Below, piece by piece: positions 3,617-60,733 of a DNA stretch of 64,000 nucleotides. The translations under genes were made by a program, and so were the position numbers. The first letter of the stretch is position 1. Each line of letters starts with the position of its first letter. The DNA lies in NCBI GenBank assembly GCA_023139205.1, contig JAGLOA010000003.1, positions 1,779-65,778 of the forward strand, given 5' to 3'. The notes beneath the pieces are model-generated. The model was not told where the DNA came from. It saw only the letters and a program-made list of their open reading frames with translations, and did no database searches. The DNA is from Candidatus Pacearchaeota archaeon. GTDB lineage: Archaea; Nanobdellota; Nanobdellia; Pacearchaeales; GW2011-AR1.

Positions 3617-3656
3617 AACAATTAAAATAAAAACAAGTATAAAAATATTTCTAATA

Positions 3657-3781
3657 GCCCCACCAGAATTCTCAAAGAAGTTCTCGCCTGTCTTTCAGGT
3701 TCTCGCACCCTTTTTTATGATGTGCTCTTTTTGGATATCGGGGCCTTGGAGGTCATCCCTTGGGAAACCTTGGTTCGAAAA
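3657..3781. repeat. GC-rich mosaic repeat element B, copy 1, abutting the 3' end of tRNA-Gln
   Basis: Modules it shares with the copies at 26930-27037 and 53059-53178: cagaattc, gaagttctcgc(acc), ggggcct(t/c)g(g/a)ag, ggaggtcatccc(t/g)tggga. Confidence 0.5.
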
Positions 3782-3854
3782 TAGCCCTACCAGGATTCGA
3801 ACCTGGGTCACAAGGTTCAGAACCTTGCATACTTGACCACTATACTATGGGGCT
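3782..3854 (-). tRNA. tRNA-Gln (anticodon CTG)
   Basis: Reverse complement is AGCCCCA..TAGGGCT with one C/A acceptor mismatch. Anticodon stem CAAGG/CCTTG with loop TTCTGAA; T arm CCAGG-TTCGAAT-CCTGG. Starts with AGCCCC like archaeal tRNA-Gln. Confidence 0.7.
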
Positions 3855-4218: not shown

Positions 4219-4379
4219 GCCCCTGTAGTCTAGAGGCCAAGGATGCCACCCTCTCAAATCAGATTAAGAGAAAGAGGTGATTTAGTCTCGGTGAGAGAAA
4301 AAGTCTATGCATCTCAATGCAGCCTTTTCTCTGTATTTGGAGAACGGTGGTGACCCGAGTTCAAATCTCGGCAGGGGCG
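4219..4379 (+). tRNA. intron-containing tRNA, most likely tRNA-Glu (anticodon CTC), with an approximately 88-nt intron after position 37
   Basis: Perfect acceptor GCCCCTG/CAGGGGC and T arm CCGAG-TTCAAAT-CTCGG. Anticodon stem CCACC(4246-4250) pairs with GGTGG(4346-4350) only after removing about 4257-4344; anticodon loop is CTCTCAA. Confidence 0.7.
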
Positions 4380-6795: not shown

Positions 6796-7077
6796 ATGGA
6801 AAAACCAAAACCCTTAACAAAAAGACAAAAAATAATTGTAAAAACAAAAGCTTCTGCAAAAAAATTAAAAAGAGAAATAAAAAAATCAATAAGTACTGCA
6901 ATTGTTGCTGCATTTGGTTTTTTAATTGCTTTGTCTTGGAGAGATGTAATAAAAGAATACGTTAATAAAATTTCCTCTCTAAGCCCTATTCAGGGGAATC
7001 TAATTAGTGCTGTAATAATAACGATTATTTCTGTAATTGGAATTTTAATTATTACCAAATTTTTATCAGGAGAATGA
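6796..7077 (+). CDS. small membrane protein (hypothetical)
   Basis: 93 aa with a basic N-terminus and two TM helices. Confidence 0.4.
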   Translation: MEKPKPLTKRQKIIVKTKASAKKLKREIKKSISTAIVAAFGFLIALSWRDVIKEYVNKISSLSPIQGNLISAVIITIISVIGILIITKFLSGE

Positions 7078-7817
7078 ACCATAAGAATATTTTTCAGATA
7101 ATGAAAATACTTTCAAAAAAATATATTTTTACTGAAAAAACAACTTTAAATCGCATGCGAAAAAAACACAGCAATGCGACTTTCATCGGAGGCAAAGAAA
7201 AAAAGTCGCCCTTAAGTGCTTCGAGGAAGGAGCGCGAGGAAAATCAAGGGGTTTCCTCGCACGCTTTTAAAATATTGATTTCTTGCTTATTATCATTAAG
7301 AGCAAGAGATGAAAACACAAAAAAGGTTTCAAAAAAATTATTCACAATAGCAGACACCCCAAAAAAGATTTCAGCAATTCCTCTAAAAAAATTAGAAAAA
7401 ATAATCTACAGCTCAGGGCATTATAAGAAAAAAGCAAAAACTCTCAAACACGTTTCAAGTGAACTTATCAAAAAATTCAATTCAAAAGTTCCTGACACAA
7501 AAGAAGAATTACTGAGCATAAAAGGGATTGGACCAAAAACAGCAAACATTGTTTTAGCGTTTGCTTTTAATAAATTAGTTCTGCCAATTGATACTCATTG
7601 TCATAGAATCCCCAACAGACTTGGCTGGGTAAAAACAAAAACAGCTGAAAAAACAGAAAAACAATTAGAAAAAATTCTTGAAAAGAGATATTGGTCAAAC
7701 TTCAATGCAATCTTTGTTCAGTTTGGAAGAGAAATCTGCCAACCAATATCTCCGTGGTGTTCTAAATGTCCCCTTAAAAAATATTGCCCAAAAATTGGAG
7801 TTATTAAAAGAAGATAA
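7074..7817 (+). CDS. nth: endonuclease III (HhH-GPD DNA glycosylase/lyase with a 4Fe-4S loop); true start is probably internal
   Basis: ILISCLLSLRARDENT helix, HhH SIKGIGPKTANIVL, catalytic D in PIDTHCHR, and C-x6-C-x2-C-x5-C at the C-terminus. The N-terminal 60 aa include GC-rich element A copy 2. Confidence 0.8.
   Translation: MNHKNIFQIMKILSKKYIFTEKTTLNRMRKKHSNATFIGGKEKKSPLSASRKEREENQGVSSHAFKILISCLLSLRARDENTKKVSKKLFTIADTPKKISAIPLKKLEKIIYSSGHYKKKAKTLKHVSSELIKKFNSKVPDTKEELLSIKGIGPKTANIVLAFAFNKLVLPIDTHCHRIPNRLGWVKTKTAEKTEKQLEKILEKRYWSNFNAIFVQFGREICQPISPWCSKCPLKKYCPKIGVIKRR
7174..7266. repeat. GC-rich element A, copy 2, with an extra second hairpin, inside the 5' region of the nth ORF
   Basis: GCGACTTT(7176-7183) pairs with AAAGTCGC(7202-7209), compensatory relative to copy 1. 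A second stem GCGAGGAAA/TTTCCTCGC lies at 7234-7260. Confidence 0.5.
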
Positions 7818-14295: not shown

Positions 14296-15126
14296 CTATA
14301 AAACCTGAAAATCAACCCTTAATCTAATTTTGTAAGGTGCAATTTCACCTGCTGATTTTACATTTAAAATTTTAATTTTCTTTTTGAATTTTTTAGCTTC
14401 TTGTTTTATTTTTTCTACGACTAAATCAATTTTGTCGGTATCACAAAAATCATAATAATAAATTCTTGTATTTTTTTTGCTTAACATAAAAGCTTGTTCA
14501 AGAAAACTATCTCTTAATTGAGGTCTTGGCATTACAATAACATCAAACTTTGCCCCTTGTAAAAATTCTTGAAGAGAATTTTTCGGGGCACACCCTTGGG
14601 TGTCAACACTAGAACCTATTACTCTCTTAATATCTCCAGAAACCAACTCAACTTTATCTTTTAATTTATTTAACTCAATATTTAATTTTGCATATTTGTT
14701 TGCTTCACGATTTAATTCATTTGAAAAAACTCTTTCTGCTTTGGAATTTTTAGCAATAATAATTGAAAAAGGTGCGACACCTGCAAACATCACCAAAACA
14801 TTTTCTCCTTTTTTTATTTTTGAAGCAATTTCTTTTCTCTCATTACTTAATCTAGGAGAAAAATAAGTTGAATCAATATTAAACCTAAAAACACAACCAT
14901 TTTCTTTATACAAAACTTCTTTTGTTTTTTCACCAGCTAAATACTTTGTAGAAATCTTTCTTAATCGACCTTTAATTCTTCCCTGTTTTTCTAAAACAGT
15001 TTTAACTGATTTTTGTTCTTTCAATAATTTTTCAGTAAATCTCTTTTTATCTTTTTGTTTAAACTCTTTAGGAAACCTAACAACTGCTATATTCCCTAAA
15101 ATATCAAAAGCCCGTTGTTTTTTCAT
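14296..15126 (-). CDS. trm5: tRNA (m1G37) methyltransferase, Trm5/Taw2 family
   Basis: FDILGNIAVV..FSPRLSNER pattern with a class I SAM-MTase fold region. Confidence 0.65.
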   Translation of the reverse strand: MKKQRAFDILGNIAVVRFPKEFKQKDKKRFTEKLLKEQKSVKTVLEKQGRIKGRLRKISTKYLAGEKTKEVLYKENGCVFRFNIDSTYFSPRLSNERKEIASKIKKGENVLVMFAGVAPFSIIIAKNSKAERVFSNELNREANKYAKLNIELNKLKDKVELVSGDIKRVIGSSVDTQGCAPKNSLQEFLQGAKFDVIVMPRPQLRDSFLEQAFMLSKKNTRIYYYDFCDTDKIDLVVEKIKQEAKKFKKKIKILNVKSAGEIAPYKIRLRVDFQVL

Positions 15127-24328: not shown

Positions 24329-26512
24329 CTACTTTCCCTTCTTAACAACTTTCTTCTCAACTTTCTCTTTCTTAATTTCAGGCTCAATTATCTTCCCACT
24401 ACTTTCCAAAGTTTCTTTTAATGCTTTATCAAAATCTTCTTTTGTTATTACCATTTTTAACTTATCTGATTTTTTAGTCTTGTAATATTTTTTAATTGCA
24501 TTTATTCCTGCTTTTCTGCATAAAGATTCTATATCTGCTCCTGTCCAGGAATCTGTTTTATCAACATAATCTAAAATATTCAAAGATTTATCAAGAGGCA
24601 TTGTTCTTGTATGAACCTTAAAAATTTCTTCTCTTGTTTTTTTATCAGGGATTCCAAGTTCAACTATCTCATCAATTCTTCCTGGCCTCAATAAAGCAGG
24701 GTCAATTAAATCTGGTCTGTTTGTCGCAGCAATAACAACAACCTTCTCTAATTCCTCAATTCCATCTAATTCAGTTAATAATTGATTAACAACTTTTTCA
24801 GTAGAATCTGACAAAGAACTTCCACGGGATTTTGAAATAGAATCAAATTCATCAAAAAAGATTATTGAAGGAGCAACCTGCACAGCTTTCTTAAATATCT
24901 CCCTGACATGTTTTTCAGATTCTCCAACCCATTTTGAAATTAATTCAGGACCTTTTACTGAAATAAAATTTGCATTTGCTTCTGTTGCAACAGCCTTGGC
25001 TAAAAGAGTTTTCCCTGTTCCAGGAGCACCAGTTAACAAAACACCCTTAGAAGGTTTGATTCCTGCCTTGACATATAAATCAGGTCTAATCAAAGGTAAC
25101 TCCACCAACTCCCTTAACTTATCCTTAGCTTTTTCCAATCCCCCAACATCACTCCATCTTACATGAGGTTTATTTATCAAAACTTCCCTCATTGCAGAAG
25201 GCTCCACAGTTCTCCCGGCATCAATAAAATTCTCCCTTGAAACTTTTATCTTATCCAAAATCTCAGTTGGAATTTTTTCCTGCATATTTTTAAGTTCTGA
25301 AAAATAAGGCTTTATTGATTTAAGAGCAGCCTCCTTGCATAAAATATCTATATCTGCTCCAGTATACCCAATTGTTCTTCTGGCAATCTCATCAAAATTC
25401 ACATCTTTAGCCAGAGGCATACCTCTTGTATGAATCCTCAAAATCTCTTTCCTCCCTTCCTCACTAGGAGGATTAATTTTTAATTCCCTATCAAATCTTC
25501 CAGGTCTTCTCAAAGCCTCATCAATATCATCAGGTCTGTTTGTTGCAGCCATTACAACCAACTGCCCACGAGATTTCAAACCATCCATTAAAGTCAATAA
25601 TTGAGCAACAATCCTCTTCTCTGTCTGATCTATCCCCTCTCCTCTCTTCGGAGCAATGGAATCAATTTCATCAATAAAAATTATAGAAGGGACGTTTTTT
25701 TCTGCTTTCTCAAATATTTCCCTGATATGTTTTTCACTCTCTCCATAAAACTTAGACATTATTTCTGGTCCTGCTATTGAAAAAAATGCAGCATCTGTTT
25801 CAGTTGCAACAGCCTTAGCTAAAAGAGTTTTCCCTGTTCCAGGAGGACCTGTTAATAAAACTCCTTTTGGAGCCCCAACACCAAGCTTCTGAAATACTTC
25901 TGGATGCTTCATTGGAAGCTCAACCATTTCTCTGATAGACTCTATCTCATTTTTCAATCCTCCAATATCCTCATAAGAAATACCAGTTGAACGCAAATCA
26001 CCTGAATAAACTTCATCAGAAACAATAATTTTTGTTGAAGGAGAAACAACCACATTTCCTTTTGGATTTAGTTTAGAAATAACATAACTCAATTTTGTTC
26101 CAAATACATCAATAACAATAACCTGATTTAAAACAAGAGGTCTGTCTAATAATTTTAAATGAAAATATTCAACAGGGTCGTTGCTGAACCTTACCCCTTC
26201 CTGCAACGGAGAAAGAGTTATTGATTTGGCTTCCTGAAAATCTGTTTTAAAAATCTCTATTTGCTCGCCTATTGAAGCATTTATATTTGAACGCGTAACC
26301 CCATCCAGCCTTATAATTTCTTTTGCTTCATTTTTCTTTAAAGCCCTCATAACCTTAACAACTCCTAAAACTTTTCCTTTAATCGCTATTAAATCCCCAG
26401 AAACCAAATTAAGAGAATCCATAACTTCAGAAGAAATCCTGGCAACACCTTGATCTATATCTTCCTGCATTGATTCTGCAACTTCTAAATTTATTATTTG
26501 TTTTTTAGTCAT
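24329..26512 (-). CDS. cdc48: CDC48/VCP-like AAA+ ATPase (paralog 1)
   Basis: CDC48 N domain followed by two AAA modules with Walker A GPPGTGKT / GAPGTGKT. Confidence 0.9.
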
Positions 26513-26892
26513 TTTCTTTTTTCAAAATAAATCTCCAAAACTCCATTTTTAAAAGTATGATTAACTTTTTTATGATTTACAAAACTAGGAAGTATCTTTT
26601 TAAAATATTCCCCTCTGCTTAATTTCCTTGCAAGATATTCCTGAATATTTTCAAGATTATTTTTCTTGGCAGTTATTTCTATTTCTTTTTTTGTAATATC
26701 AACCTTTATATCTTTTTCAGAATAACCAGGCAATTCAAAAACCAAAAACAATTTATCTTTGGTTTCTATAAAATCAATTATTCTTTCATCATCTTCTCCT
26801 TTAATAATATTCTCCGAGCTATGTAAATTTGATCTTTGACCAAAAAAGTCTCTTACAATATTTTCAAAAGGGTCTTCATCAAAAAAACTCAT
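26509..26892 (-). CDS. hsp20: small heat-shock protein, Hsp20/alpha-crystallin family
   Basis: Alpha-crystallin-like FLVFELPGYSEKDIKVDI region; overlaps cdc48 by 4 nt. Confidence 0.75.
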   Translation of the reverse strand: MSFFDEDPFENIVRDFFGQRSNLHSSENIIKGEDDERIIDFIETKDKLFLVFELPGYSEKDIKVDITKKEIEITAKKNNLENIQEYLARKLSRGEYFKKILPSFVNHKKVNHTFKNGVLEIYFEKRK

Positions 26893-26929
26893 TTTATGCC
26901 CCTAGTAAAAATCTTTTCAGAAGATTTTC

Positions 26930-27037
26930 TCTCAGACCTACTTGGTTCGGGGCCTCGAAGAGGTCTTGTCCCTCCTTGGGATACTCGCACCTTCTTGGTG
27001 TACGCACGAAGTGTGTCCCTTATACACCCAAGGGTGT
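26930..27037. repeat. GC-rich mosaic repeat element B, copy 2, in the hsp20 5' leader/promoter region
   Basis: Shares ttcggggcctcgaagagg, tcgcacct(c/t)cttggtgtac and cccttggg modules with copies 1 and 3. Internal pairs CCCTTGGG/CCCAAGGG and ACACCC/GGGTGT. Confidence 0.5.
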
Positions 27038-27066: not shown

Positions 27067-29364
27067 TTATCCTAAATAACTATTCTCCACAGGTATTGCT
27101 GCCTTTGCAGATTTTAAATAATTCTCCTCAATTTTTTTATAAACTTCAATGGTTGATTTATTTACACTTGGCTTAACTTTATTTAAAGCCCCGTCAAAAT
27201 GTTTTTTCTTTACTTGATCTGAATCTATAGATTCCCTTAAAGCCAACATTGCAGCTTCCCTAACCAATGCTTCTAAATCTGCCCCGCTATAACCAATTGT
27301 CTTTTTAGCTAAATCCTTAATTTTAACATCCTTAGCCAAAGGCATATTTTTTGTATGAATCTCCAAAACTTTTAATCTACCTTCTTCTTCAGGAGTATTA
27401 ACTAACAAAATTTTATCAAATCTTCCAGGCCTCAATAAACCTGGGTCCAACATATCTGGTCTGTTTGTCGCTCCAATAACAAGAACATCATGCAAATCCT
27501 CAAGACCATCCATTTCTGCAAGCAACTGATTCAATACTCTCTCAGTAACCTTTGTCCCTGTTTCTGATCCTCTCTTCCCTGCCAAAGAATCAACCTCATC
27601 AAAAAATATAACACAAGGAGAAACTTGTCTTGCTCTCTCAAAAATCTTTCTCATCCCTTCTTCTGATTTACCAACCCACATGCTTAACAAAGAAGGTCCT
27701 TTAACCTGAATAAAATTAGCTTCTGATTCTTTTGCAACAGCCTTAGCCAATAAAGTCTTACCTGTTCCAGGAGGACCATAAAGCAAAATTCCCCTTGAAG
27801 GCCGAATACCCATTCTTGTAAAACTCTCAGGATATTTCATAGGCCATTCCACAGCTTCTTTTAATTCCATTTTAACAGAATTTAATCCTCCAATATCCTC
27901 CCACCCAATATTTGGAGTCTCAACCAAAACTTCCCTCATTGCAGAAGGTCGAACAACTTTCAAAGCATCCATAAAATTTTCTTTTTTAACAATTAACTTT
28001 TCTAAAATCTCATGAGGAATTTGCTCTTCTTCATCTAATTTCATTTGAGGCAGAAACTTCCTTAAAACACTCATAGCAGCCTCCTTGCTCAACGCCTCTA
28101 AATCAGCACCAACAAAACCATGCGTTACAGAAGCAATCTCATCTAATTTAACACCCTTTGTTAAAGGCATACCTCTTGTATGAATTTTTAAAATTGAAAG
28201 TCTTCCTTCTTTACTCGGAACATTAATTTCTACTTCCCGGTCAAATCTTCCAGGTCTTCTTAATGCAGGATCAAGAGCATTAACTCGATTAGTTGCTCCA
28301 ATAACTATAACATTCCCTCTTCCTTTAAGACCATCCATCATCGTTAATAATTGACTAACAACTCTCCTTTCAACTTCCCCTCCCACCTCTTCTCTTTTTG
28401 GAGCAATAGCATCTATTTCATCAATAAAAATTATAGTTGGTGCAGTCTTCTCTGCTTCTTCAAAAATATCTCTAATTTTTTTTTCACTTTCTCCATAAAA
28501 CTTAGACATTATTTCTGGTCCATTAAGCAAAATAAAATTAGCTTCTGATTCATTTGCAACAGCCTTAGCTAAAAGAGTCTTACCTGTTCCAGGAGGACCA
28601 TGCAATAAAACTCCCTTTGGAGGTGCTATTCCCAATTTCTGAAAAATTTCCGGATGCTTCATAGGAATTTCTACCATCTCCCTTATTTTCTTAATCTCTT
28701 CAGAAAGCCCACCAATATCTTCATAATTAATCTCAGGGATTTTTTCATCAGTTATTTCAACAGCTTTAGGATTTAATGTAACTTCTGTATTTTCAGAGAT
28801 ATAACATGGCTGATTTGGATTTGCATTAACAACTAAAAATTTAATTTGAGAAATTCCTCCGCCCAAATTTCCAAAACCCATGTTTTCAAACGCATCGCCA
28901 AATAATCCTCCAAGATCTTCATTAAGTCCCATCTCTGAAAATAAATCTCTTCTTCTTTGTACCCCTCCTAAAACAACAAGGTCTCCTTTTACAAGAGTTC
29001 TTCCTAAAAGCCCTCTCCTTAAACTTTCAGGATCTCCCTGAACCATAATTCCTTTTTGTGCAGGAGCAATCATTATTTTTTTTGCTTCTTTAACCTCTGC
29101 CTTAGAGATTGTAACAACATCTCCAATACCTGTTTTTGCATTTCTTCTTAAAATACCATCAATTCTTATAATTCCTTCACCAACATCAGCAGGATAAGCT
29201 TTATCTGCAATAGCAACTGTTTCCTTCCCACCTTTTATAAGAATAACATCTCCTCTTTTAATCCCTAACTCTCTCATTATTTCACTATCTAATCTAGCAA
29301 TTCCCTTATATGCATCATCCTGCAATGCTTCAACAACTTTTAATTGAATTTCTTTTTTATCCAT
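27067..29364 (-). CDS. cdc48: CDC48/VCP-like AAA+ ATPase (paralog 2)
   Basis: N domain followed by two AAA modules (GPPGTGKT twice). Confidence 0.9.
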
Positions 29365-30861: not shown

Positions 30862-30994
30862 TTAATTCTTAGCAGACAACATCTTTTTAAATCAAAAGTT
30901 ATTTACTGAATTACGGCTCCGTAGCTTCCCAAGGAGGGATGATCTGCTTTGCAGACCTCAGCCTTTTAAGTTACTTCGCAGTCGCCCCAAAAAT

Positions 30995-31069
30995 GGCTCC
31001 GTAGCTCAGCTTGGTCAGAGCACCAGACTCTTAATCTGGGTGTCGAGGGTTCAAATCCCTTCGGGGCCA
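30995..31069 (+). tRNA. tRNA-Lys (anticodon CTT)
   Basis: Acceptor GGCTCCG/CGGGGCC, anticodon stem CCAGA/TCTGG with loop CTCTTAA, T arm GAGGG-TTCAAAT-CCCTT, discriminator A. Confidence 0.85.
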
Positions 31070-47447: not shown

Positions 47448-47660
47448 ATGATTAATGAAGAATATTTTAAAGAAAAGATAGACAAAGAACATATATCTCC
47501 GGAAGATATTTTAAATTCATATAATCCTTTAACAAAAGAGATGATTGAAAAAGGAAAAATTTGGAACCATGTTTGGGGACAAACTGATTGGGGACAAGAA
47601 TCTTGGGGACGAGAATGGGGCAAGGATTGGGGAAAAGAAACTTGGAATCAAGCTAGCTAA
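47448..47660 (+). CDS. candidate RiPP precursor peptide with C-terminal tandem W-G-x-x repeats
   Basis: 70 aa; the C-terminal 30 aa are VWGQTD WGQES WGRE WGKD WGKET WNQAS, from imperfect 12-15-bp DNA repeats. The stop is 1 nt before the next gene. Confidence 0.45.
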   Translation: MINEEYFKEKIDKEHISPEDILNSYNPLTKEMIEKGKIWNHVWGQTDWGQESWGREWGKDWGKETWNQAS

Positions 47661-51391: not shown

Positions 51392-52480
51392 CTAAACCTT
51401 AAATCTCAAAATAGCGCCAATCCCTCCAAGATTCTTGAATTGCTCTCCTTCCTCTGTTTCAGTGGAAATAATCTCAAAATCTGAACCCATATCTCCAGCT
51501 ATTTTTTTTAATTCTTTTGCAATCTTTTTATCAATCTCTTTAGATAAAAACAACATATCTACTGCACCATATTCCAAAGCTTTCTTAGTATCCTCCTCTT
51601 TCAATGTAGCTAAATAAGGTTTCTCCCCTAAAGTTTCAAAAAACCTTTCCAAAACTTTTTTCTCATGAATAATTTCCTGACCTGCTAAAATGTCTTGAGA
51701 TTTTATAACAAGTTCTTTTAAACCAGATTCATCAGAATCCCCAATATCAATTTTTCCAATAAATTTTTCTCTTAATTTTGTAGCTAAGTATTCTCCATCA
51801 ATAAACTCATCTTTTGTTGGAATAGGCCCTCCAATTAAAATTCCTTTAAGTTTTGTCATCTCAAAAAAAATAGTTTTCATTTCATCTGCAATCCTTTTAT
51901 AAAAATCTTTAGTTAATCCTTCGGTAATTCTATGGAATCTTTGGGCACTCTGACCCCCGGCCCTAACCTTACTTGGAACACCAGAAGTCATTTTTTGCAA
52001 AACTTCTATTCTTTTTCCTTCTAATAATCCAATAGTTGCTTCTTTCCTGTCCATTACAAGAAGCCCAAAAACTTCATCAACTTCAAGCATTGTTTTTAAT
52101 GGTTCTAAAACAAATTCCTTGTCACACCTATATAATCTTGTCTTTAAAGGCATAGGAGGTTCAATATCCCATAATTGCAAATCCTGTTGACCATCTACCA
52201 GAGAAACATTTCCGCAAAATAAAGCAAGACCATTTTCAGGAGTTTTCTTCAAAGTTTTTAAATGCCTTACAATCTTCTCTAATGCCTCAGTAACATTCTT
52301 TCTCGTAGAAGTAGACTTAATATTTTTAGAAGTAGATTTTTCAGCTTCAAGCTGTCTCTGAACAGAATTAACATCATAACCCTCAGAAATATAAACAGAA
52401 ATAAGTTCAGTATGTTTCCCTTTATATTCTTCAAGTTCTTCTAAAAGTTCTTCTAATTCAAATTTTGTTAATACTGTCAT
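51392..52480 (-). CDS. prf1: peptide chain release factor aRF1
   Basis: NIKS and GGQ motifs. Confidence 0.8.
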   Translation of the reverse strand: MTVLTKFELEELLEELEEYKGKHTELISVYISEGYDVNSVQRQLEAEKSTSKNIKSTSTRKNVTEALEKIVRHLKTLKKTPENGLALFCGNVSLVDGQQDLQLWDIEPPMPLKTRLYRCDKEFVLEPLKTMLEVDEVFGLLVMDRKEATIGLLEGKRIEVLQKMTSGVPSKVRAGGQSAQRFHRITEGLTKDFYKRIADEMKTIFFEMTKLKGILIGGPIPTKDEFIDGEYLATKLREKFIGKIDIGDSDESGLKELVIKSQDILAGQEIIHEKKVLERFFETLGEKPYLATLKEEDTKKALEYGAVDMLFLSKEIDKKIAKELKKIAGDMGSDFEIISTETEEGEQFKNLGGIGAILRFKV

Positions 52481-54939
52481 TCTAAAAACCCCACCTTAAA
52501 TTGTTTCCCTTCTTTAATTTCTTTTGCATTTGTAACATTTTTCAAATCATCTAACATCTCTTTCAAATCCCCATAATTTGTTTTATTAATTGTTAAAATG
52601 CATTCTGCATTCATAGATTTTTGATTCTTTGTTTTTTCTTGTCTAACATTAGATAAAACTTCATAAAATAAACTTAAATCTTTATTTGAATCTTCAAACT
52701 TTCCAGTTCTTGGCCAAGAACTAATATGAATTGACTTGTCCTTTTCAATTTTCTTAAAATGTTCTTGATAAATTTCTTCTGTAACAAAAGGCATAATTGG
52801 GGCAATCATTTTTAAAATAGCTAAAAGAGATTTATACAAAGTATATTGTGCAGAAAGTTTCTTATCCCCTTCTCCCTGATAAACTCTTTTCTTTACAATC
52901 TCCAAATAATTATCGCAAAAATCATTCCAAAAAAAACTCTCAATCTCTTGCTTTACTTTTGAATATTCATATTTTTCAAAATTCTTTCCAGCTTCATTTA
53001 CAACATAATCTAATTTGTTTAAAAACAATTCATCCAACTTTTCCAACTTCTTTTGTTTTGCCCCAGAATTCAGTGTTTTGGGGCTTCGGAGAAGTTCTCG
53101 CACCTCCTTGGTGTACACCGAGGCCTCCCTCTTCGGGAGGTCATCCCGTGGGAAGCGGTGCGACCCATCCCATCCCTCTAAATTCATAAAAACAAATCTA
53201 GATGCATTCATTAATTTAGTTATCATTTTTTTTCCTGTAACTAAATCTTTTTCCTGATAATCTAAATCATTTCCTAACTTAGAACTTGCGGCAGCAAACC
53301 TCAAAGCATCTGCACCATACTCTTCCATAATTTTAATTGGGTCAAGAACATTTCCTTTTGACTTTGACATTTTCTCTCCGCCAAGCGTAACAAAACCAGA
53401 AATCACAATATCTTTCCAGGGAATTTCTTTTTCATGCAAATAAGATTTAACAATTGTATAAAATGCCCAAGTTCGAATTATATCATGTGCCTGTGGACGA
53501 AAAGAAAAAGGTAAACCAATCCTCCCTTTTGCCTGTGCTAATTCTGCAGCAATCTGAGGAGTCATAGAAGAGGTAGCCCATGTATCTAAAACCATTTTTT
53601 CAGGCTCAGCAATTTTATGACACTTAGGACATTTTTTTTCAACTTGCAAAGGATCAACAGGGAGCTCATTTTCAGAAGGCAAAATAATTTCCCCGCAAGA
53701 ACATTCCCAAACAGGAATAGGAATTCCAAAATGCCTGTTCCTTGAAATACTCCAATCCCATTCTAAACCATTAACCCAATTATCATATCTCTTATGCATA
53801 AATTCAGGATACCAATTTATCTTATTTCCCTGAGCAATTAATTTATCTTTTTTGTCTAAAATTTTAATAAACCATTGCTCTGTCGGCAAGAATTCAATTC
53901 CAGTTCCACATTTATCATGACAATTCAAAACATGACTAATTTCTTTTTTCTCTTTAATCAAACCCTCTTTTTTCAAATCTTCTAAAATCTTTTTTCTTGC
54001 GTCTTTAATTTTCAAACCCTTATACTTTCCAATATTCAAAGTCCCATCTTTTTCTAAAACAATTTTTGGATTAAGACCATGACGATTAATTGCATCCACA
54101 TCAAATCTATCTCCATAACTGCAAATCATTAAGACACCAGTCCCTTTATCAATTTCAGCAGATTTATCTTCAAGAATAGGAACTTCTTGATTAAACAAAG
54201 GAACTTTTGCTTTTTTTCCGACGAGAGTTTTATATCTCTTATCCAGAGGATTAACAAAAACTGCAACACAAGCCCCCAATAATTCAGGACGGGTTGTAGC
54301 AACCAATAAATCTTTTTTGTTGCATTTAAACTTCAAAGTTGAAAACAAACTCGTCTCTTCTTTATCTTCCAATTCTGCCTGAGCAATAGAAGTTTGGCAT
54401 TCAGGACACCACAAAGTTGGAAACTCTTTTTTATAAGCTTCTTTTTTCTTAACTAAATCAATAAAAGATTTCTGAGAAACTTTTTGTGAATGTTTATCAA
54501 TTGTCGAATAATAAATATCATAATCTGAAGAAATTCCTAAATCCCTAAAATCTTTAATGCAGATTGGAGTAACTTTTTTAAGAGTTTTCAAACACAATGC
54601 AATAAATTTAGAACGACCCATATCCTTGCTTTTAACTTTGTTTTCCTTTTCAATAAATCTCTCTGTAGGCAAACCATTATCATCTGTTCCAAAAGGATAA
54701 AAAATATTCTTCCCTTTCATTCTCATAAATCTAATTATAAAATCCTGCTGCGAATAACTAAAAGCATGCCCAATATGCATTCTCCCAGAAATATACGGCG
54801 GAGGAGTATCTACGCTAAAAATCTCTTCTTTCCTCTTTGCATCAAACTTGTAAATCCCTTGGTTTTCCCAGAATTTTCTCCATTTTTCTTCAATACCCTT
54901 AAAATCAAATTTAGACTTTGCCATGAGGAAAATACCCAC
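52477..54939 (-). CDS. valS: valine--tRNA ligase (class I aaRS), containing an in-frame GC-rich insertion
   Basis: HIGH-like PPPYISGRMHIGHA, KMSKS, WNDFCDNYLE. Roughly 40 extra residues, encoded by repeat copy B3, follow NASRFVFMNLEG. Confidence 0.75.
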   Translation of the reverse strand: MGIFLMAKSKFDFKGIEEKWRKFWENQGIYKFDAKRKEEIFSVDTPPPYISGRMHIGHAFSYSQQDFIIRFMRMKGKNIFYPFGTDDNGLPTERFIEKENKVKSKDMGRSKFIALCLKTLKKVTPICIKDFRDLGISSDYDIYYSTIDKHSQKVSQKSFIDLVKKKEAYKKEFPTLWCPECQTSIAQAELEDKEETSLFSTLKFKCNKKDLLVATTRPELLGACVAVFVNPLDKRYKTLVGKKAKVPLFNQEVPILEDKSAEIDKGTGVLMICSYGDRFDVDAINRHGLNPKIVLEKDGTLNIGKYKGLKIKDARKKILEDLKKEGLIKEKKEISHVLNCHDKCGTGIEFLPTEQWFIKILDKKDKLIAQGNKINWYPEFMHKRYDNWVNGLEWDWSISRNRHFGIPIPVWECSCGEIILPSENELPVDPLQVEKKCPKCHKIAEPEKMVLDTWATSSMTPQIAAELAQAKGRIGLPFSFRPQAHDIIRTWAFYTIVKSYLHEKEIPWKDIVISGFVTLGGEKMSKSKGNVLDPIKIMEEYGADALRFAAASSKLGNDLDYQEKDLVTGKKMITKLMNASRFVFMNLEGWDGSHRFPRDDLPKREASVYTKEVRELLRSPKTLNSGAKQKKLEKLDELFLNKLDYVVNEAGKNFEKYEYSKVKQEIESFFWNDFCDNYLEIVKKRVYQGEGDKKLSAQYTLYKSLLAILKMIAPIMPFVTEEIYQEHFKKIEKDKSIHISSWPRTGKFEDSNKDLSLFYEVLSNVRQEKTKNQKSMNAECILTINKTNYGDLKEMLDDLKNVTNAKEIKEGKQFKVGFLE
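53059..53178. repeat. GC-rich mosaic repeat element B, copy 3, in-frame inside valS
   Basis: ccccagaattcag...ggggcttcggagaagttctcgcacctccttggtgtac...gggaggtcatcccgtgggaag. Confidence 0.5.
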
Positions 54940-60343: not shown

Positions 60344-60574
60344 TTATAATCCTTTTTTTAATCCTTTTTTTAATCCTTTTTTTAAACCAGAACTTTTTAA
60401 TCCTTCCTTTAATCCGTCTTCCAACCCAAAATCAATTTTCTTAAACAAAATCTCTTGCTTTTTAATGTTTTTTGCACTAAATTGTTTTGTAATTTTCTCA
60501 CTAGACTCTGGGATAAAAGGCCAAAGTAATTCAGCAATTTTCAAAATACTTTCCTTCGTTGGGCTTACCCACAA
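60344..60574 (-). pseudogene. metG: truncated methionyl-tRNA synthetase remnant (C-terminal anticodon-binding end plus a (K/G)GLK repeat tail), probably cut by the adjacent IS insertion
   Basis: 76-aa ORF with ILKIAELLWPFIPESSEKI like the MetRS anticodon-domain end. No catalytic domain lies upstream; an IS starts about 30 bp away. Confidence 0.35.
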
Positions 60575-60733
60575 CTTGCTATGATTAAGTTGTTGATTCT
60601 TAGCATCAAAGAATCAACCTTTTTCTTATCGAATTTTTTAAAAATTAACGCAATCATTTATGAATAACTACAAGAAATTATTCTGCCCGAAAAGTCTGGC
60701 ATAAAAAATAGCATTACCGAGAACCCTTAATTC

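What the first reader, a model, noticed from the sequence alone, without database searches (positions are those of the whole stretch)
3657..3781. Family of GC-rich, self-complementary mosaic repeat elements in an AT-rich genome (other copies at 26930-27037 and 53059-53178)
**Seen in the sequence:**
- Three 110-125-bp islands of about 55-60% GC share reshuffled modules.
- The modules are cagaattc / gaagttctcgc(acc), ttcggggcctcgaagagg ~ ggggcttcggagaag ~ atcggggccttggagg, tcgcacct(c/t)cttggtgtac, and ggaggtcatccc(t/g)tggga.
- Each copy is full of internal inverted repeats (CCCTTGGG/CCCAAGGG, CCTCCC..GGGAGG, CCCCAGAA..TTTTGGGG).
- The locations are all different: directly 3' of tRNA-Gln, in the hsp20 leader, and inside valS.

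**Inference:**
- This is a miniature non-autonomous mobile element (MITE-like, or like the palindromic elements described in Rickettsia), or a family of small structured RNAs.
- I am not aware of such a family being described for DPANN-type archaea.
Basis: seen in the sequence. Interest (0 to 1): 0.7.

Follow-up and report, generated by a model that had tools for sequence, protein, structure and literature searches.

The report
GC-rich hairpin mini-elements inside archaeal genes
The three GC-rich islands belong to a real, previously undescribed family of small hairpin-forming repeats that have inserted into and beside genes of tiny DPANN archaea, usually in frame and so probably translated as extra protein loops, much like the palindromic elements of Rickettsia.

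Summary
The window (Ca. Pacearchaeota, 29% GC) carries three clear copies: c2 26896-27037, c3 53060-53161 and a new one, c5 14550-14604. It also carries two decayed copies: c1 3645-3781 and c4 30915-30994.

The shared 20-mer CTCGCACCTYCTTGGTGTAC occurs in 29 stretches from 17 species-level genomes, all Pace-/Woese-/Nanoarchaeota, and in 41 metagenome contigs.

- **Anatomy.** On the gene-sense strand the element runs 5'-GCACC...GGGGC-3' and consists of four short hairpins. Covariation supports them: 22 of 26 pairs show compensatory changes, and 0 of 500 shuffles match. Optional modules are nested inside.
- **Mobility.** Filled versus empty sites are seen in valS (+102 nt), metS (+69 nt) and Trm5. 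These insertions have no target-site duplication and no terminal inverted repeats.
- **Position and orientation.** Of 77 unique copies, 42 lie inside ORFs that stay open. All but one run the same way as the host gene.
- **Reading frame.** Two of the three frames dominate (15:16:1), which argues that the elements are translated.

No bulge-helix-bulge intron motif, Rfam family or Pfam family fits. Best reading: selfish, non-autonomous, modular hairpin elements, analogous to Rickettsia palindromic elements and yeast mitochondrial GC clusters. The mobilising enzyme is unknown.

The parts
53060..53161 (-). Copy c3: 102-nt element inserted in frame (34 codons) in valS. It has the short form of hairpin H1, then H2, the 20-mer hairpin, and nested module Y inside the terminal hairpin.
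   Evidence: The 34-residue insertion is absent from 11 ValRS homologues, including ones 81% and 78% identical. DNA of the empty sites in L002 and L003 gives the exact ends GCACC...GGGGC. Family-model score 49.1 bits, E 1e-11.
26896..27037 (-). Copy c2: 142-nt element between the CDC48 stop codon and the hsp20 start codon. It has long H1 with nested module X, then H2, module Z, the 20-mer, and extra terminal hairpins. It ends 3 nt before the hsp20 ATG.
   Evidence: nhmmer E 7e-16; family model 39-42 bits; sequence; flanking genes identified by Pfam.
14550..14604 (-). Copy c5 (new): minimal element made of the terminal hairpin plus H1 only, in frame in the Trm5/TYW2 methyltransferase gene (14296-15126, minus strand), just before the FDVIVMPRP strand.
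   Evidence: Family model 39.8 bits, E 4.5e-9; sequence; Pfam PF02475. Homologues of 256-262 aa lack the ~18-residue insertion, while a clade 73-83% identical to the window protein shares it.
3645..3781 (-). Copy c1 (the finding's own coordinates): a decayed composite. It keeps module Y, two partial 20-mer/H2 junctions and a short-H1 3' arm. It lies directly 3' of tRNA-Gln.
   Evidence: Exact 18-mer shared with c3; 12-mer GAAGTTCTCGCC shared with c3; family model 13.4 bits, E 0.07, ranking 5th of all window positions with filters off.
30915..30994 (+). Copy c4: decayed element directly 5' of tRNA-Lys, on the same strand as the tRNA. It keeps module Z (TCCCAAGGAGGGA), an H2-like hairpin TCTGC-TTT-GCAGA and a degenerate H1.
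   Evidence: 13-mer shared with c2; family model 16.4 bits, E 0.011, ranking 4th in the window; sequence.
26984..27003 (-). Conserved 20-mer in c2. The sense strand reads GTACACCAAGAAGGTGCGAG, forming hairpin CACC-AAGAA-GGTG.
53097..53116 (-). Conserved 20-mer in c3. The sense strand reads GTACACCAAGGAGGTGCGAG, forming hairpin CACC-AAGGA-GGTG.
52477..54939 (-). Host gene valS (valine-tRNA ligase), open through c3.
14296..15126 (-). Host gene for the Trm5/TYW2-type tRNA methyltransferase, open through c5.
26509..26892 (-). hsp20 gene, whose start codon lies 3 nt downstream of c2.
3782..3854 (-). tRNA-Gln(CUG). Its last 17 nt are repeated (15 of 17 identical) at the far end of c1.
30995..31069 (+). 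tRNA-Lys(CUU). Its first 12 nt, GGCTCCGTAGCT, are repeated exactly at 30915-30926, the start of c4.

Best explanation
These are copies of a family of small (about 55-140 bp), non-coding, non-autonomous mobile elements specific to DPANN archaea of the Pace-/Woesearchaeota (Nanoarchaeota) group.

**Anatomy, read on the sense strand of the host gene.** An element runs from 5'-GCACC to GGGGC-3' and is usually followed by host A residues. It is a string of short GC-rich hairpins:
- a terminal hairpin CACC-CAAG-GGTG;
- a second hairpin CACC-AAGGA-GGTG, which lies within the conserved 20-mer;
- a third, CCTC-TTC-GAGG;
- a long one, GCCCC...AAAAATCTTC-loop-GAAGATTTTT...GGGGC.

Hairpins can be missing, and extra small modules can sit inside their loops. 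That is why the window's copies look like reshuffled mosaics.

**Shown:**
- the elements insert into new sites, without target-site duplication or terminal inverted repeats;
- their lengths are mostly multiples of three;
- most surviving copies lie inside genes, in the gene's own orientation, and leave the reading frame open.

**Inferred:**
- they are translated as hydrophilic Gly/Pro/Arg/Lys/Ser-rich surface loops or terminal tails, and are tolerated rather than useful;
- the hairpins are kept because propagation depends on them, either as single-stranded DNA or RNA structures recognised by an unidentified trans-acting enzyme, or through recombination and gene conversion between copies;
- the orientation bias results mainly from selection on the encoded peptide, plus the A-rich composition of coding strands.
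For: **Not chance**
- Exact 18-20-mers are shared between copies, against 0.00-0.01 expected.
- The 20-mer occurs in 29 stretches from 17 species-representative genomes, all DPANN, out of 185,579 species scanned. It also occurs in 41 metagenome contigs and in no viral contig.
- A profile search finds 88 hits, 77 of them unique, in 551 kb.

**Structure**
- RNAalifold finds 6-8 pairs with compensatory changes in the long hairpin.
- On 75 distinct copies aligned to the family model, 92.5% of cells are paired, 22 of 26 pairs have double-sided changes, 0 of 500 shuffles reach the observed values, and slid controls give 30-54% pairing.

**Mobility**
- valS carries +34 codons only in this genome; relatives 81% and 78% identical have a gap-free empty site.
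- metS of relative L002 carries +23 codons compared with L003.
- The N-terminal Trm5 site is filled in L049/P0198, P0121 and P0136 but empty in the window.
- The window's c5 site is empty in the 256-262-aa homologues.

**Translation**
- 42 of 77 unique copies sit in ORFs open for at least 150 nt on both sides; 17 more lie at 5' ends and 9 at 3' ends.
- Frame use among interior copies is 15:1:16, although all three frames of the conserved core are free of stops.
- One copy forms the C-terminal tail of ribosomal protein L32e, ending at the L19e start codon.

**Orientation**
- Only 1 of 77 copies (L018) lies antisense in a long ORF.
- Sense-strand frames average GRAVY -0.98 against +0.14 for antisense frames. 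Stops occur in 45 of 123 sense frames and 65 of 123 antisense frames.
- A-runs outnumber T-runs 2.7-4 fold on coding strands.

**Module gain and loss at one site**
- P0136 (minimal element) and P0150 (full element) differ at the same Trm5 site.
- Different hairpin-3 variants occupy the same GluRS site.

**Analogy**
- Yeast mitochondrial GC clusters are GC-rich palindromic mobile elements that 'merge and shuffle' (PMC4478555).
- Rickettsia palindromic elements (RPEs) insert in frame into genes (PMC10969869).
Against: - No mobilising enzyme or autonomous parent element was identified, and the window's 69 ORFs were not screened for one.
- Elements at orthologous GluRS sites are as conserved as the flanking coding DNA or more so (74-98% against 66-84%). 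Plain junk DNA would not behave this way. It needs either in-place constraint, homogenisation between copies, or the ascertainment bias of searching with an exact 20-mer.
- The loop AAGGA(GG) is invariant even where the stem co-varies (CACC/GGTG to TCCC/GGGA). This hints at a sequence-specific partner.
- The measured causes of orientation bias (a 3-4 fold target asymmetry, peptide hydropathy) may not fully explain a 76:1 bias. The roughly six intergenic copies are also co-oriented with the adjacent gene.
- Translation is inferred from reading frames only. No peptide or transcript data were available.
- All sequences come from metagenome assemblies.
- The covariation alignment was fitted to the model whose structure it then tests.
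Confidence: 0.7

Rival explanations
1. A functional cis-acting RNA motif. The hairpin array is kept by selection where it sits in mRNAs, for example as a binding site for a protein, a ribonuclease or the ribosome. The invariant loop plus stem reads AAGGAGGUG, complementary to the 3' end of 16S rRNA. On this view spread by insertion is secondary.
For: - Strict co-orientation with transcription, including intergenic copies.
- Compensatory changes in all helices.
- An invariant AAGGA loop across co-varying stems.
- Elements at orthologous GluRS and Trm5 sites are retained across species and are at least as conserved as the flanking coding DNA.
- c2 sits 3 nt from the hsp20 start codon, and another copy sits at the L32e/L19e junction.
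Against: - Copies are spread over unrelated genes and positions: aminoacyl-tRNA synthetases, Trm5, deoxyhypusine synthase, ribosomal proteins, and N- and C-termini. No common functional context is apparent.
- Close relatives do without them at the same sites.
- Only 2 of 30 evaluable copies are followed by a real start codon.
- Whole hairpins, including the 20-mer, are dispensable (c5, L002 copy).
- Minimum free energy does not favour the sense strand (p=0.09).
- The frame bias points to selection on the peptide, not only on the RNA.
- The conservation estimate is biased, because loci were found with an exact 20-mer.
Confidence: 0.12
2. A new kind of intervening sequence. The element would be removed from the transcript, as an archaeal intron cut by the tRNA-splicing endonuclease, or skipped by the ribosome, as the GC-rich 'byp' elements of yeast mitochondria are. 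The host proteins would then be unaltered.
For: - Sense orientation relative to the host gene is what introns require.
- The window contains a tRNA with a long intron.
- Insertions sit in essential enzymes, one just before the catalytic strand of Trm5.
Against: - No bulge-helix-bulge motif occurs at a consistent position in any orientation.
- All 42 interior copies keep the frame open, and lengths cluster at multiples of three (84, 87, 102). An efficiently removed sequence would not need either property.
- Frame use is strongly non-random.
- Copies form C-terminal tails that run to a natural stop codon.
- No Rfam intron or ribozyme family matches.
Confidence: 0.04
3. A selected protein module. 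On this view the peptide encoded by the element is the functional unit, a short linker or interaction motif spread between proteins, and the DNA hairpins are incidental.
For: - Two recurrent peptides, APKGVHQGGARTSSRPR... and (V/A)YTKEVREPLRGPEKSS.KIFTKGK, occur in many proteins.
- The c5-type peptide is conserved in a clade of Trm5 orthologues.
Against: - The same DNA is read in two, occasionally three, frames, giving unrelated peptides. At one orthologous site both frames occur (L047 against L048/L063).
- Intergenic and tRNA-adjacent copies exist (c1, c2, c4).
- Base-pair covariation is a nucleic-acid-level signal.
- No Pfam family matches the peptides.
Confidence: 0.05
4. Stand-alone small structured RNA genes. 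GC-rich islands in AT-rich archaeal genomes are often non-coding RNA genes.
For: - GC-rich, strongly folding islands: z about -3.4 for the antisense strand of c2 and c3.
- Helices show covariation.
Against: - About 88% of copies overlap open reading frames of ordinary genes.
- Flanks are not conserved, so there is no common promoter or terminator.
- No Rfam family matches, even at E up to 10.
- Copy architecture is too variable for a single RNA.
Confidence: 0.03
5. Chance resemblance among unrelated GC-rich patches.
For: Pairwise BLAST E-values within the window alone are modest, 0.002-0.02. c1 and c4 are weak matches.
Against: - Shuffle expectations are 0.00-0.01.
- There are 70 external exact matches, confined to one archaeal lineage.
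- Consensus, ends and structure are consistent across copies.
Confidence: 0.01

Closest known systems
Rickettsia palindromic elements (RPEs)
   Same: - Short, hairpin-forming, non-coding repeats in an AT-rich, reduced genome.
- They insert into protein-coding genes in frame, so that they become extra peptide segments of otherwise normal essential proteins.
- There are also intergenic copies.
- The mobilising mechanism is unknown (PMC10969869; own knowledge of Ogata et al. 2000).
   Different: - Different domain of life, with no sequence relationship established.
- RPEs are about 100-150 bp and each family is described as giving one conserved peptide. Here two reading frames are used about equally, and the element is modular (55 to about 140 bp), with dispensable hairpins and nested modules.
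- The orientation and frame statistics come from 77 copies across many genomes, not from one genus.
Palindromic GC clusters and double-hairpin elements of fungal mitochondrial genomes
   Same: - GC-rich palindromic islands in very AT-rich genomes.
- Sporadic distribution with presence/absence polymorphism.
- 'Merger and shuffling' of clusters into new mosaics (PMC4478555), which matches the reshuffled modules seen here.
   Different: - Those elements are organellar.
- They are mostly intergenic or in introns and rRNA variable regions.
- Putative short target-site duplications are reported for some.
- They are not known to populate dozens of protein-coding genes in a strict orientation.
MITEs in the strict sense, including the archaeal MITEs of Sulfolobus, Halobacterium and Haloquadratum
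   Same: Small, multicopy and non-autonomous, with no coding capacity of their own.
   Different: - No terminal inverted repeats beyond a 4-of-5 match (GCACC against GCCCC).
- No target-site duplication at the two sites where an empty allele is available.
- No related insertion sequence found.
- Classical MITEs are mostly intergenic and disrupt genes when they land in them.
IS200/IS605-derived palindrome-associated elements and REP sequences
   Same: - No inverted terminal repeats and no target duplication.
- Sub-terminal hairpins at both ends.
- A constant short sequence context at one end: an A-run after GGGGC on the sense strand, equivalent to a T-run before the element on the other strand.
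   Different: - No Y1/HUH transposase gene was identified or searched for systematically.
- REPs are extragenic by definition.
- Orientation here follows the local gene direction (c4 is opposite to c2, only 4 kb away) rather than a single replication direction.
Archaeal bulge-helix-bulge introns, including the few in mRNAs (cbf5), and mitochondrial translational-bypass ('byp') elements
   Same: Short inserts in the sense orientation inside genes of organisms whose tRNAs carry introns. Byp elements are GC-rich inserts in AT-rich coding DNA.
   Different: - No bulge-helix-bulge motif.
- Frames are always open, and frame usage is biased.
- This argues for ordinary translation rather than removal.

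Membership tests
MITE (strict sense) | Small, non-coding, multicopy | tested here: met
   Elements of 55-142 nt. 77 unique copies in 551 kb of loci and 5 in the 64-kb window.
MITE (strict sense) | Terminal inverted repeats | tested here: not met
   The ends defined from empty sites are GCACC... and ...GGGGC. The reverse complement of the 3' end (GCCCCTAGTA) matches the 5' end (GCACCCAAGG) at only 4 of the first 5 bases, and not beyond.
MITE (strict sense) | Target-site duplication | tested here: not met
   The filled valS and metS sites align to empty alleles with no duplicated bases and no loss. The direct repeats around c1 and c4 are tRNA ends, seen only next to tRNAs.
MITE (strict sense) | A related autonomous insertion sequence with the same ends | not tested
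   No split ends flanking an ORF were seen among the profile hits. Genomes were not screened for transposases.
Rickettsia-palindromic-element-like intragenic selfish repeats (a kind, not a homologous family) | Hairpin-forming repeat inserted in frame in protein-coding genes, leaving the ORF intact | tested here: met
   42 of 77 copies are interior to open ORFs. The valS, metS, Trm5 and GluRS alignments show clean in-frame insertions.
Rickettsia-palindromic-element-like intragenic selfish repeats (a kind, not a homologous family) | Absent from orthologous sites in relatives (mobility) | tested here: met
Rickettsia-palindromic-element-like intragenic selfish repeats (a kind, not a homologous family) | Sequence homology to RPE-1 to RPE-10 | not tested
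   No RPE sequences were available to compare. Given a lineage-restricted archaeal distribution, homology is not expected.
IS200/IS605-type palindrome-associated element / REP | No terminal inverted repeat, no target-site duplication, sub-terminal hairpins | tested here: met
IS200/IS605-type palindrome-associated element / REP | Insertion next to a fixed tetra- or pentanucleotide | tested here: inconclusive
   GGGGC is followed by A in 30 of 30 evaluable copies, and usually by AAA. However, coding strands are 40% A, and the A may belong to the element.
IS200/IS605-type palindrome-associated element / REP | Cognate Y1/HUH transposase (TnpA or RAYT) in the genome | not tested
   Only five window ORFs were scanned against Pfam.
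Archaeal bulge-helix-bulge intron | Bulge-helix-bulge motif spanning both boundaries | tested here: not met
   A scan for 3-nt bulge / 4-bp helix / 3-nt bulge with 3-bp flanking helices found no motif at a recurrent position in 31 copies, on either strand.
Archaeal bulge-helix-bulge intron | The host function requires excision (frame or structure disrupted if retained) | tested here: not met
   Frames are always open and lengths are mostly multiples of three.
Any Rfam RNA family | Covariance-model match | tested here: not met
   Only tRNAs reach gathering scores. Nothing credible appears at E up to 10 on the three islands.
Mitochondrial GC clusters / double-hairpin elements | GC-rich palindromes in an AT-rich genome that merge and shuffle | tested here: met
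   48-61% GC against 29%. Nested modules X, Y and Z, and minimal versus full forms at the same site. The feature is described in PMC4478555.
Mitochondrial GC clusters / double-hairpin elements | Organellar genome; homology to the described M1-M4/GC42 clusters | tested here: not met
   The host is a DPANN archaeon. This is an analogy only.

The most novel reading that the evidence does not exclude
The hairpin array may be more than tolerated junk: an RNA-level agent specific to DPANN archaea. Two versions fit the data. In one it is propagated through a transcript intermediate, which would explain why 76 of 77 copies lie in the sense orientation of transcribed genes. In the other it has been recruited as a signal inside mRNAs, read by the ribosome or by an RNA-binding protein. 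Its invariant loop plus stem, AAGGAGG(UG), is complementary to the 3' end of 16S rRNA. Orthologous copies also keep their hairpins by compensatory change and evolve no faster than the coding DNA around them. Either version would be a new class of intragenic archaeal RNA element.
Probability: 0.12. Interest if true: 0.85.

Novelty: new variant of a known kind. Interest (0 to 1): 0.62.

Why it matters
- **Convergence across domains of life.** In-frame, hairpin-forming selfish repeats inside essential genes are known from Rickettsia, and related GC-rich palindromes from fungal mitochondria. The same life-style across Pace- and Woesearchaeota would show that AT-rich, reduced symbiont genomes acquire such passengers convergently.
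- **Protein length variation.** It would explain part of the puzzling length variation and 'lineage-specific insertions' in DPANN universal proteins.
- **Practical consequences.**
  - The elements inflate and fragment protein families.
  - They can mislead indel-based phylogenetic markers.
  - They may cause assembly breaks in MAGs.
  - They provide a ready marker for strain-level variation.
- **Evolutionary value.** The family offers many natural insertion experiments in aminoacyl-tRNA synthetases, Trm5, ribosomal proteins and other proteins. Its modular gain and loss of hairpins is a tractable case of how non-autonomous elements diversify.
- **Open question.** The mobilising machinery in organisms with so few genes is unknown.

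Tried and rejected
- **Known RNA families.** Rfam at gathering score and at E up to 10 gave only tRNAs.
- **C/D-box or kink-turn RNA.** I considered this because of GGGATGA and CTGA strings. I dropped it once the family consensus showed these are not conserved.
- **Split, permuted or intron-containing tRNA gene.** I considered this for c1 and c4 because tRNA ends are repeated there. Most family members have no tRNA nearby, so this is at most a local peculiarity.
- **Bulge-helix-bulge intron.** An explicit motif scan found nothing consistent.
- **Strand of the functional structure.** Minimum free energies of 21 copies do not differ significantly between strands. G-U counts are mixed.
- **Portable ribosome-binding or start-codon cassette.** Only 2 of 30 copies precede a real start codon.
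- **Orientation bias explained by A-run targets alone.** The asymmetry is only 2.7-4 fold.
- **Diversity-generating retroelement target/template repeats.** Rejected because copies lie in many unrelated genes and positions.
- **Viral or plasmid origin.** Two motif scans of viral contigs found nothing.
- **Counting host proteins by the encoded peptide.** The word-index search returned nothing.
- **The repeat finder on the whole window.** The output was swamped by AT-rich low-complexity matches.
- **Literature.** Five searches found no description of such elements in DPANN.
Full report
**1. What is in the window**

The window is 29.0% GC. Its ValRS is identical to a protein that NCBI names as from 'Candidatus Pacearchaeota archaeon'. 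The three islands named in the finding are 48%, 55% and 61% GC.

- tRNA-Gln(CUG) at 3782-3854, minus strand;
- an Hsp20 gene at 26509-26892, minus strand, with CDC48 upstream at 27067-29364, minus strand;
- valS at 52477-54939, minus strand.

The shared modules are not chance. CTCGCACCTYCTTGGTGTAC occurs twice, against 0.00 expected. GGAGGTCATCCCKTGGGA occurs twice, against 0.01 expected, even with three mismatches allowed. Within-window BLAST alone gives only modest E-values of 0.002-0.02. The decisive evidence comes from outside the window.

**2. The family outside the window**

An exact-match scan for the 20-mer over one genome per species (185,579 species) returned 29 stretches. They come from 17 assemblies, every one labelled Pacearchaeota, Woesearchaeota, Nanoarchaeota or uncultured archaeon, with up to four hits per genome. 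The same scan of JGI metagenomes returned 41 contigs. Two motif scans of viral contigs returned none.

Aligning the flanks gives a clear consensus. Written on the strand antisense to the host genes, it reads:

TTTGCCCC-tagt-AAAAATCTTC-loop-GAAGATTTTT-c-GGGGC | CTC-GAA-GAGG | TT | CTCGCACCTCCTTGGTGTAC | ACC-CTTG-GGTGC

A profile built from 14 copies finds 88 hits, 77 of them unique, in the 551 kb fetched.

In the window the profile finds c2, c3 and a new copy c5 at 14550-14604. A covariance model run without filters ranks the window's copies as follows:
- c3 at 49.1 bits, c5 at 39.8 bits and c2 at 39.1 bits;
- then c4 (30915-31009) at 16.4 bits, E 0.011, and c1 (3645-3715) at 13.4 bits, E 0.07;
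- all other positions at 12.9 bits or less.

So the finding's own coordinates (c1) hold a decayed mosaic copy. The well-preserved copies are c2, c3 and c5.

**3. Anatomy**

Two filled-versus-empty comparisons fix the ends.
- ValRS of this genome has 34 extra residues relative to 11 homologues, including proteins 81% and 78% identical. At DNA level, removing exactly GCACC...GGGGC (102 nt, 53060-53161) restores a gap-free alignment: EGWDG-S-KQKK against EEYKG-K-KPKK.
- In relative L002, MetRS has 23 extra residues (69 nt, again GCACC...GGGGC) compared with L003.

Neither site shows duplicated target bases or terminal inverted repeats. Both insertions lie in the same loop of the class Ia synthetase fold, just after the NxxxR helix that opens the anticodon-binding domain.

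The interior is a string of four short hairpins. RNAalifold recovers the long hairpin with 6-8 compensatory pairs. On 75 distinct copies aligned to model R1:
- 92.5% of cells are paired;
- 22 of 26 pairs show double-sided changes (126 cells);
- none of 500 shuffles reaches any of the measures;
- sliding the partners gives 30-54% pairing.

That alignment was fitted to the model, so it leans towards the structure. The independent MAFFT alignment shows the same covariation.

Clear examples of co-varying stems:
- hairpin 3: CCTC/GAGG, CTTC/GAAG, CCTT/AAGG and CCTGC/GCAGG;
- the 20-mer hairpin: CACC-AAGGA-GGTG against TCCC-AAGGA-GGGA.

The 'mosaic' look has two causes.
- Hairpins are dispensable. 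c5 and the L002 copy lack the 20-mer and hairpin 3.
- Small modules are nested in loops or between hairpins: TCAGACCTACTTGG in c2, L005, L011 and L002; GAGGCC...GGAGGTCATCCCGTGGGAAGC in c1, c3, L029 and L031.

Minimum free energies do not tell which strand folds.

**4. Where the copies sit**

Position of the 77 unique copies:
- 42 lie in reading frames open for at least 150 nt on both sides;
- 17 lie at the 5' end of an open frame;
- 9 lie at the 3' end;
- 9 lie in neither.

Only one copy (L018) lies antisense in a long ORF. Intergenic copies are also co-oriented with the nearest gene. In the window, c4, on the plus strand beside a plus-strand tRNA, is opposite to c2 only 4 kb away. Orientation therefore follows local transcription, not one replication direction.

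Hosts include ValRS, MetRS, GluRS, the LeuRS N-terminus, Trm5, deoxyhypusine synthase and the C-terminal tail of ribosomal protein L32e.

Interior copies that carry the 20-mer use the three frames 15:1:16, giving two recurrent peptides: APKGVHQGGARTSSRPR... and (V/A)YTKEVREPLRGPEKSS.KIFTKGK. The conserved core has no stop in any frame. The near-absence of the third frame (CTPRRCENL) therefore points to selection on the peptide, and hence to translation. Copies are not all independent, because some are orthologous.

Estimated lengths cluster at 84, 87 and 102 nt. Sense-strand frames are strongly hydrophilic (mean GRAVY -0.98) and antisense frames are not (+0.14). Antisense frames also carry more stops, 65 against 45 of 123. 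With the 2.7-4 fold excess of A-runs over T-runs on coding strands, this gives a plausible but unproven account of the orientation bias.

**5. Old and new insertions**

Recent insertions:
- c3 is unique to this genome among 120 listed ValRS relatives, which are 773-807 aa against 815 aa.

Older insertions:
- c5 is shared by a clade of Trm5 orthologues 73-83% identical to the window protein. It is absent from the 256-262-aa forms.

Variation at a single site:
- At the same Trm5 site, P0136 carries the minimal form and its close relative P0150 the full form.
- A second, N-terminal Trm5 site is filled in three orthologues but empty in the window.
- Five GluRS orthologues carry the element at one site, with two different hairpin-3 variants. 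Excluding the 20-mer, the element is 74-98% identical between them, against 66-84% for the flanks.

This last point is the main observation that plain 'junk' does not predict. It could reflect constraint in place, homogenisation or replacement by other copies, repeated insertion into a tolerant loop, or simply the bias of having found these loci through an intact 20-mer.

**6. Alternatives tested**

- No Rfam family matches.
- No bulge-helix-bulge motif occurs at a recurrent position.
- No Pfam family covers the peptides.
- Only 2 of 30 copies are followed by a genuine start codon. The idea of a portable translation-initiation cassette, or of an hsp20-specific leader, is therefore not general.
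- tRNA adjacency is not general either.
- Literature searches found nothing for DPANN. A 2024 review lists archaeal MITEs only from Sulfolobus, Halobacterium, Haloquadratum, Desulfurococcus and 'several other' genomes (PMC10969869).

**7. Interpretation**

*Shown:* a lineage-restricted, multicopy family with a defined consensus, ends and hairpins; presence/absence polymorphism; in-frame residence; orientation and frame bias.

*Inferred:*
- the copies are translated and tolerated as hydrophilic loops;
- the hairpins matter for propagation;
- modules are exchanged by nested insertion or by recombination between copies.

*Unknown:* the enzyme or process that moves them.

The closest analogues are Rickettsia palindromic elements, which share the in-frame life-style, and mitochondrial GC clusters, which are GC-rich palindromes in AT-rich DNA that merge and shuffle (PMC4478555). 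The lack of terminal inverted repeats and target duplications, together with sub-terminal hairpins, is also what IS200/IS605-derived elements look like. No such transposase was sought or found, so that remains a lead only.

I put 0.7 on the selfish, translated, mobile-element reading. I put about 0.12 on a genuine RNA-level function or RNA-mediated spread, and little on the other readings.

**8. Caveats**

- All sequences are metagenome assemblies.
- External loci were ascertained with one exact 20-mer, so copy numbers, conservation and the share of full-length forms are biased.
- 'Open frame' was judged from stop codons, not from curated gene models.
- No expression data were available.

Noticed in passing
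window 3653-3671 and 3782-3800: c1 is bracketed by an imperfect direct repeat of the tRNA-Gln 3' end: GAATCCTGGTAGGGCTA in the tRNA and GAATTCTGGTGGGGCTA at the far end of c1. The functional tRNA has a C6-A67 mismatch in its acceptor stem. The displaced copy carries the G seen in the tRNA-Gln of another genome (L040, 16 of 17 identical). The 3' arm of the short form of hairpin H1 (CACTGAATTCTGGGGC) in c3, L018, L023 and others also resembles a tRNA T-loop plus acceptor 3' strand.
   Followed up: partly
window 30915-30926 and 30995-31006: A perfect 12-nt direct repeat, GGCTCCGTAGCT, which is the first 12 nt of tRNA-Lys, brackets c4. Together with c1, both tRNA-adjacent copies are flanked by duplicated tRNA ends. 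The copies inside genes show no duplication.
   Followed up: partly
window 4219-4379 (+): A tRNA gene of 161 nt was found by Rfam (44.6 bits) but missed by ARAGORN. By eye it is tRNA-Glu(CUC) with an intron of about 88 nt at the canonical position after the anticodon.
   Followed up: no
window 7156-7271 (+), inside ORF 7074-7817: Another GC-rich (about 50%), strongly folding island (z -2.7 on both strands) lies in frame in the N-terminal part of an endonuclease III gene. Solved homologues align only from residue ~61-64 of the window protein to their residue ~30, which leaves about 33 extra residues. The island contains AAGGAGCGCGAGGAA, close to the family's AAGGAGGTGCGAGAA, in the sense orientation. 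It may be a distant relative or a second family. It has no family-model hit.
   Followed up: partly
Trm5 homologues P0142, P0161, P0176, P0177, P0185, P0188, P0207, P0218 and others (alignment A7, columns ~240-320): The loop of Trm5 that holds c5 carries unrelated insertions of 10 to about 55 residues in many other DPANN orthologues. Several share motifs such as LPAHL(R/C)SQ and RAKR(D/A)NLP. This suggests further families of in-frame inserts and a hot-spot loop. P0136 and P0150 also share an 11-residue insert, APPGVPQNLWG, near the C-terminus.
   Followed up: no
window 53060-53161 (valS) and L002 842-905 (metS): Two independent insertions in two different class Ia aminoacyl-tRNA synthetases lie in the structurally equivalent loop, just after the N..R helix that begins the anticodon-binding domain.
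   Followed up: partly
window 60434-60613 (-): Only the last ~40 residues of a MetRS-like protein (KESILKIAELLWPFIPESSEKITKQFSAKNIKKQEILFKKI) match the MetRS of relatives L002 and L003. The upstream part does not align in that frame. It may be a truncated, frameshifted or rearranged metS.
   Followed up: no
window 24329-26512 and 27067-29364 (-): Two paralogous CDC48/AAA+ genes flank hsp20 and c2. Their four AAA domains account for the largest direct-repeat families in the window, at 65-84% identity.
   Followed up: no
window 47552-47657 (+): A GC-richer stretch made of repeated TTGGGGAC/ATGGGGCA units, inside an ORF and apparently encoding a Trp/Gly-rich repeat. It is not related to the element family.
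   Followed up: no
L011 5366-5482 and neighbours; L029 1697-2072; L067; L066; L046; L036: Some genes carry two to three element copies close together or in tandem, for example inside a 3.2-kb ORF in L011 and three copies within 400 nt in L029. This points to local clustering, or to repeat-rich proteins that tolerate many inserts.
   Followed up: no
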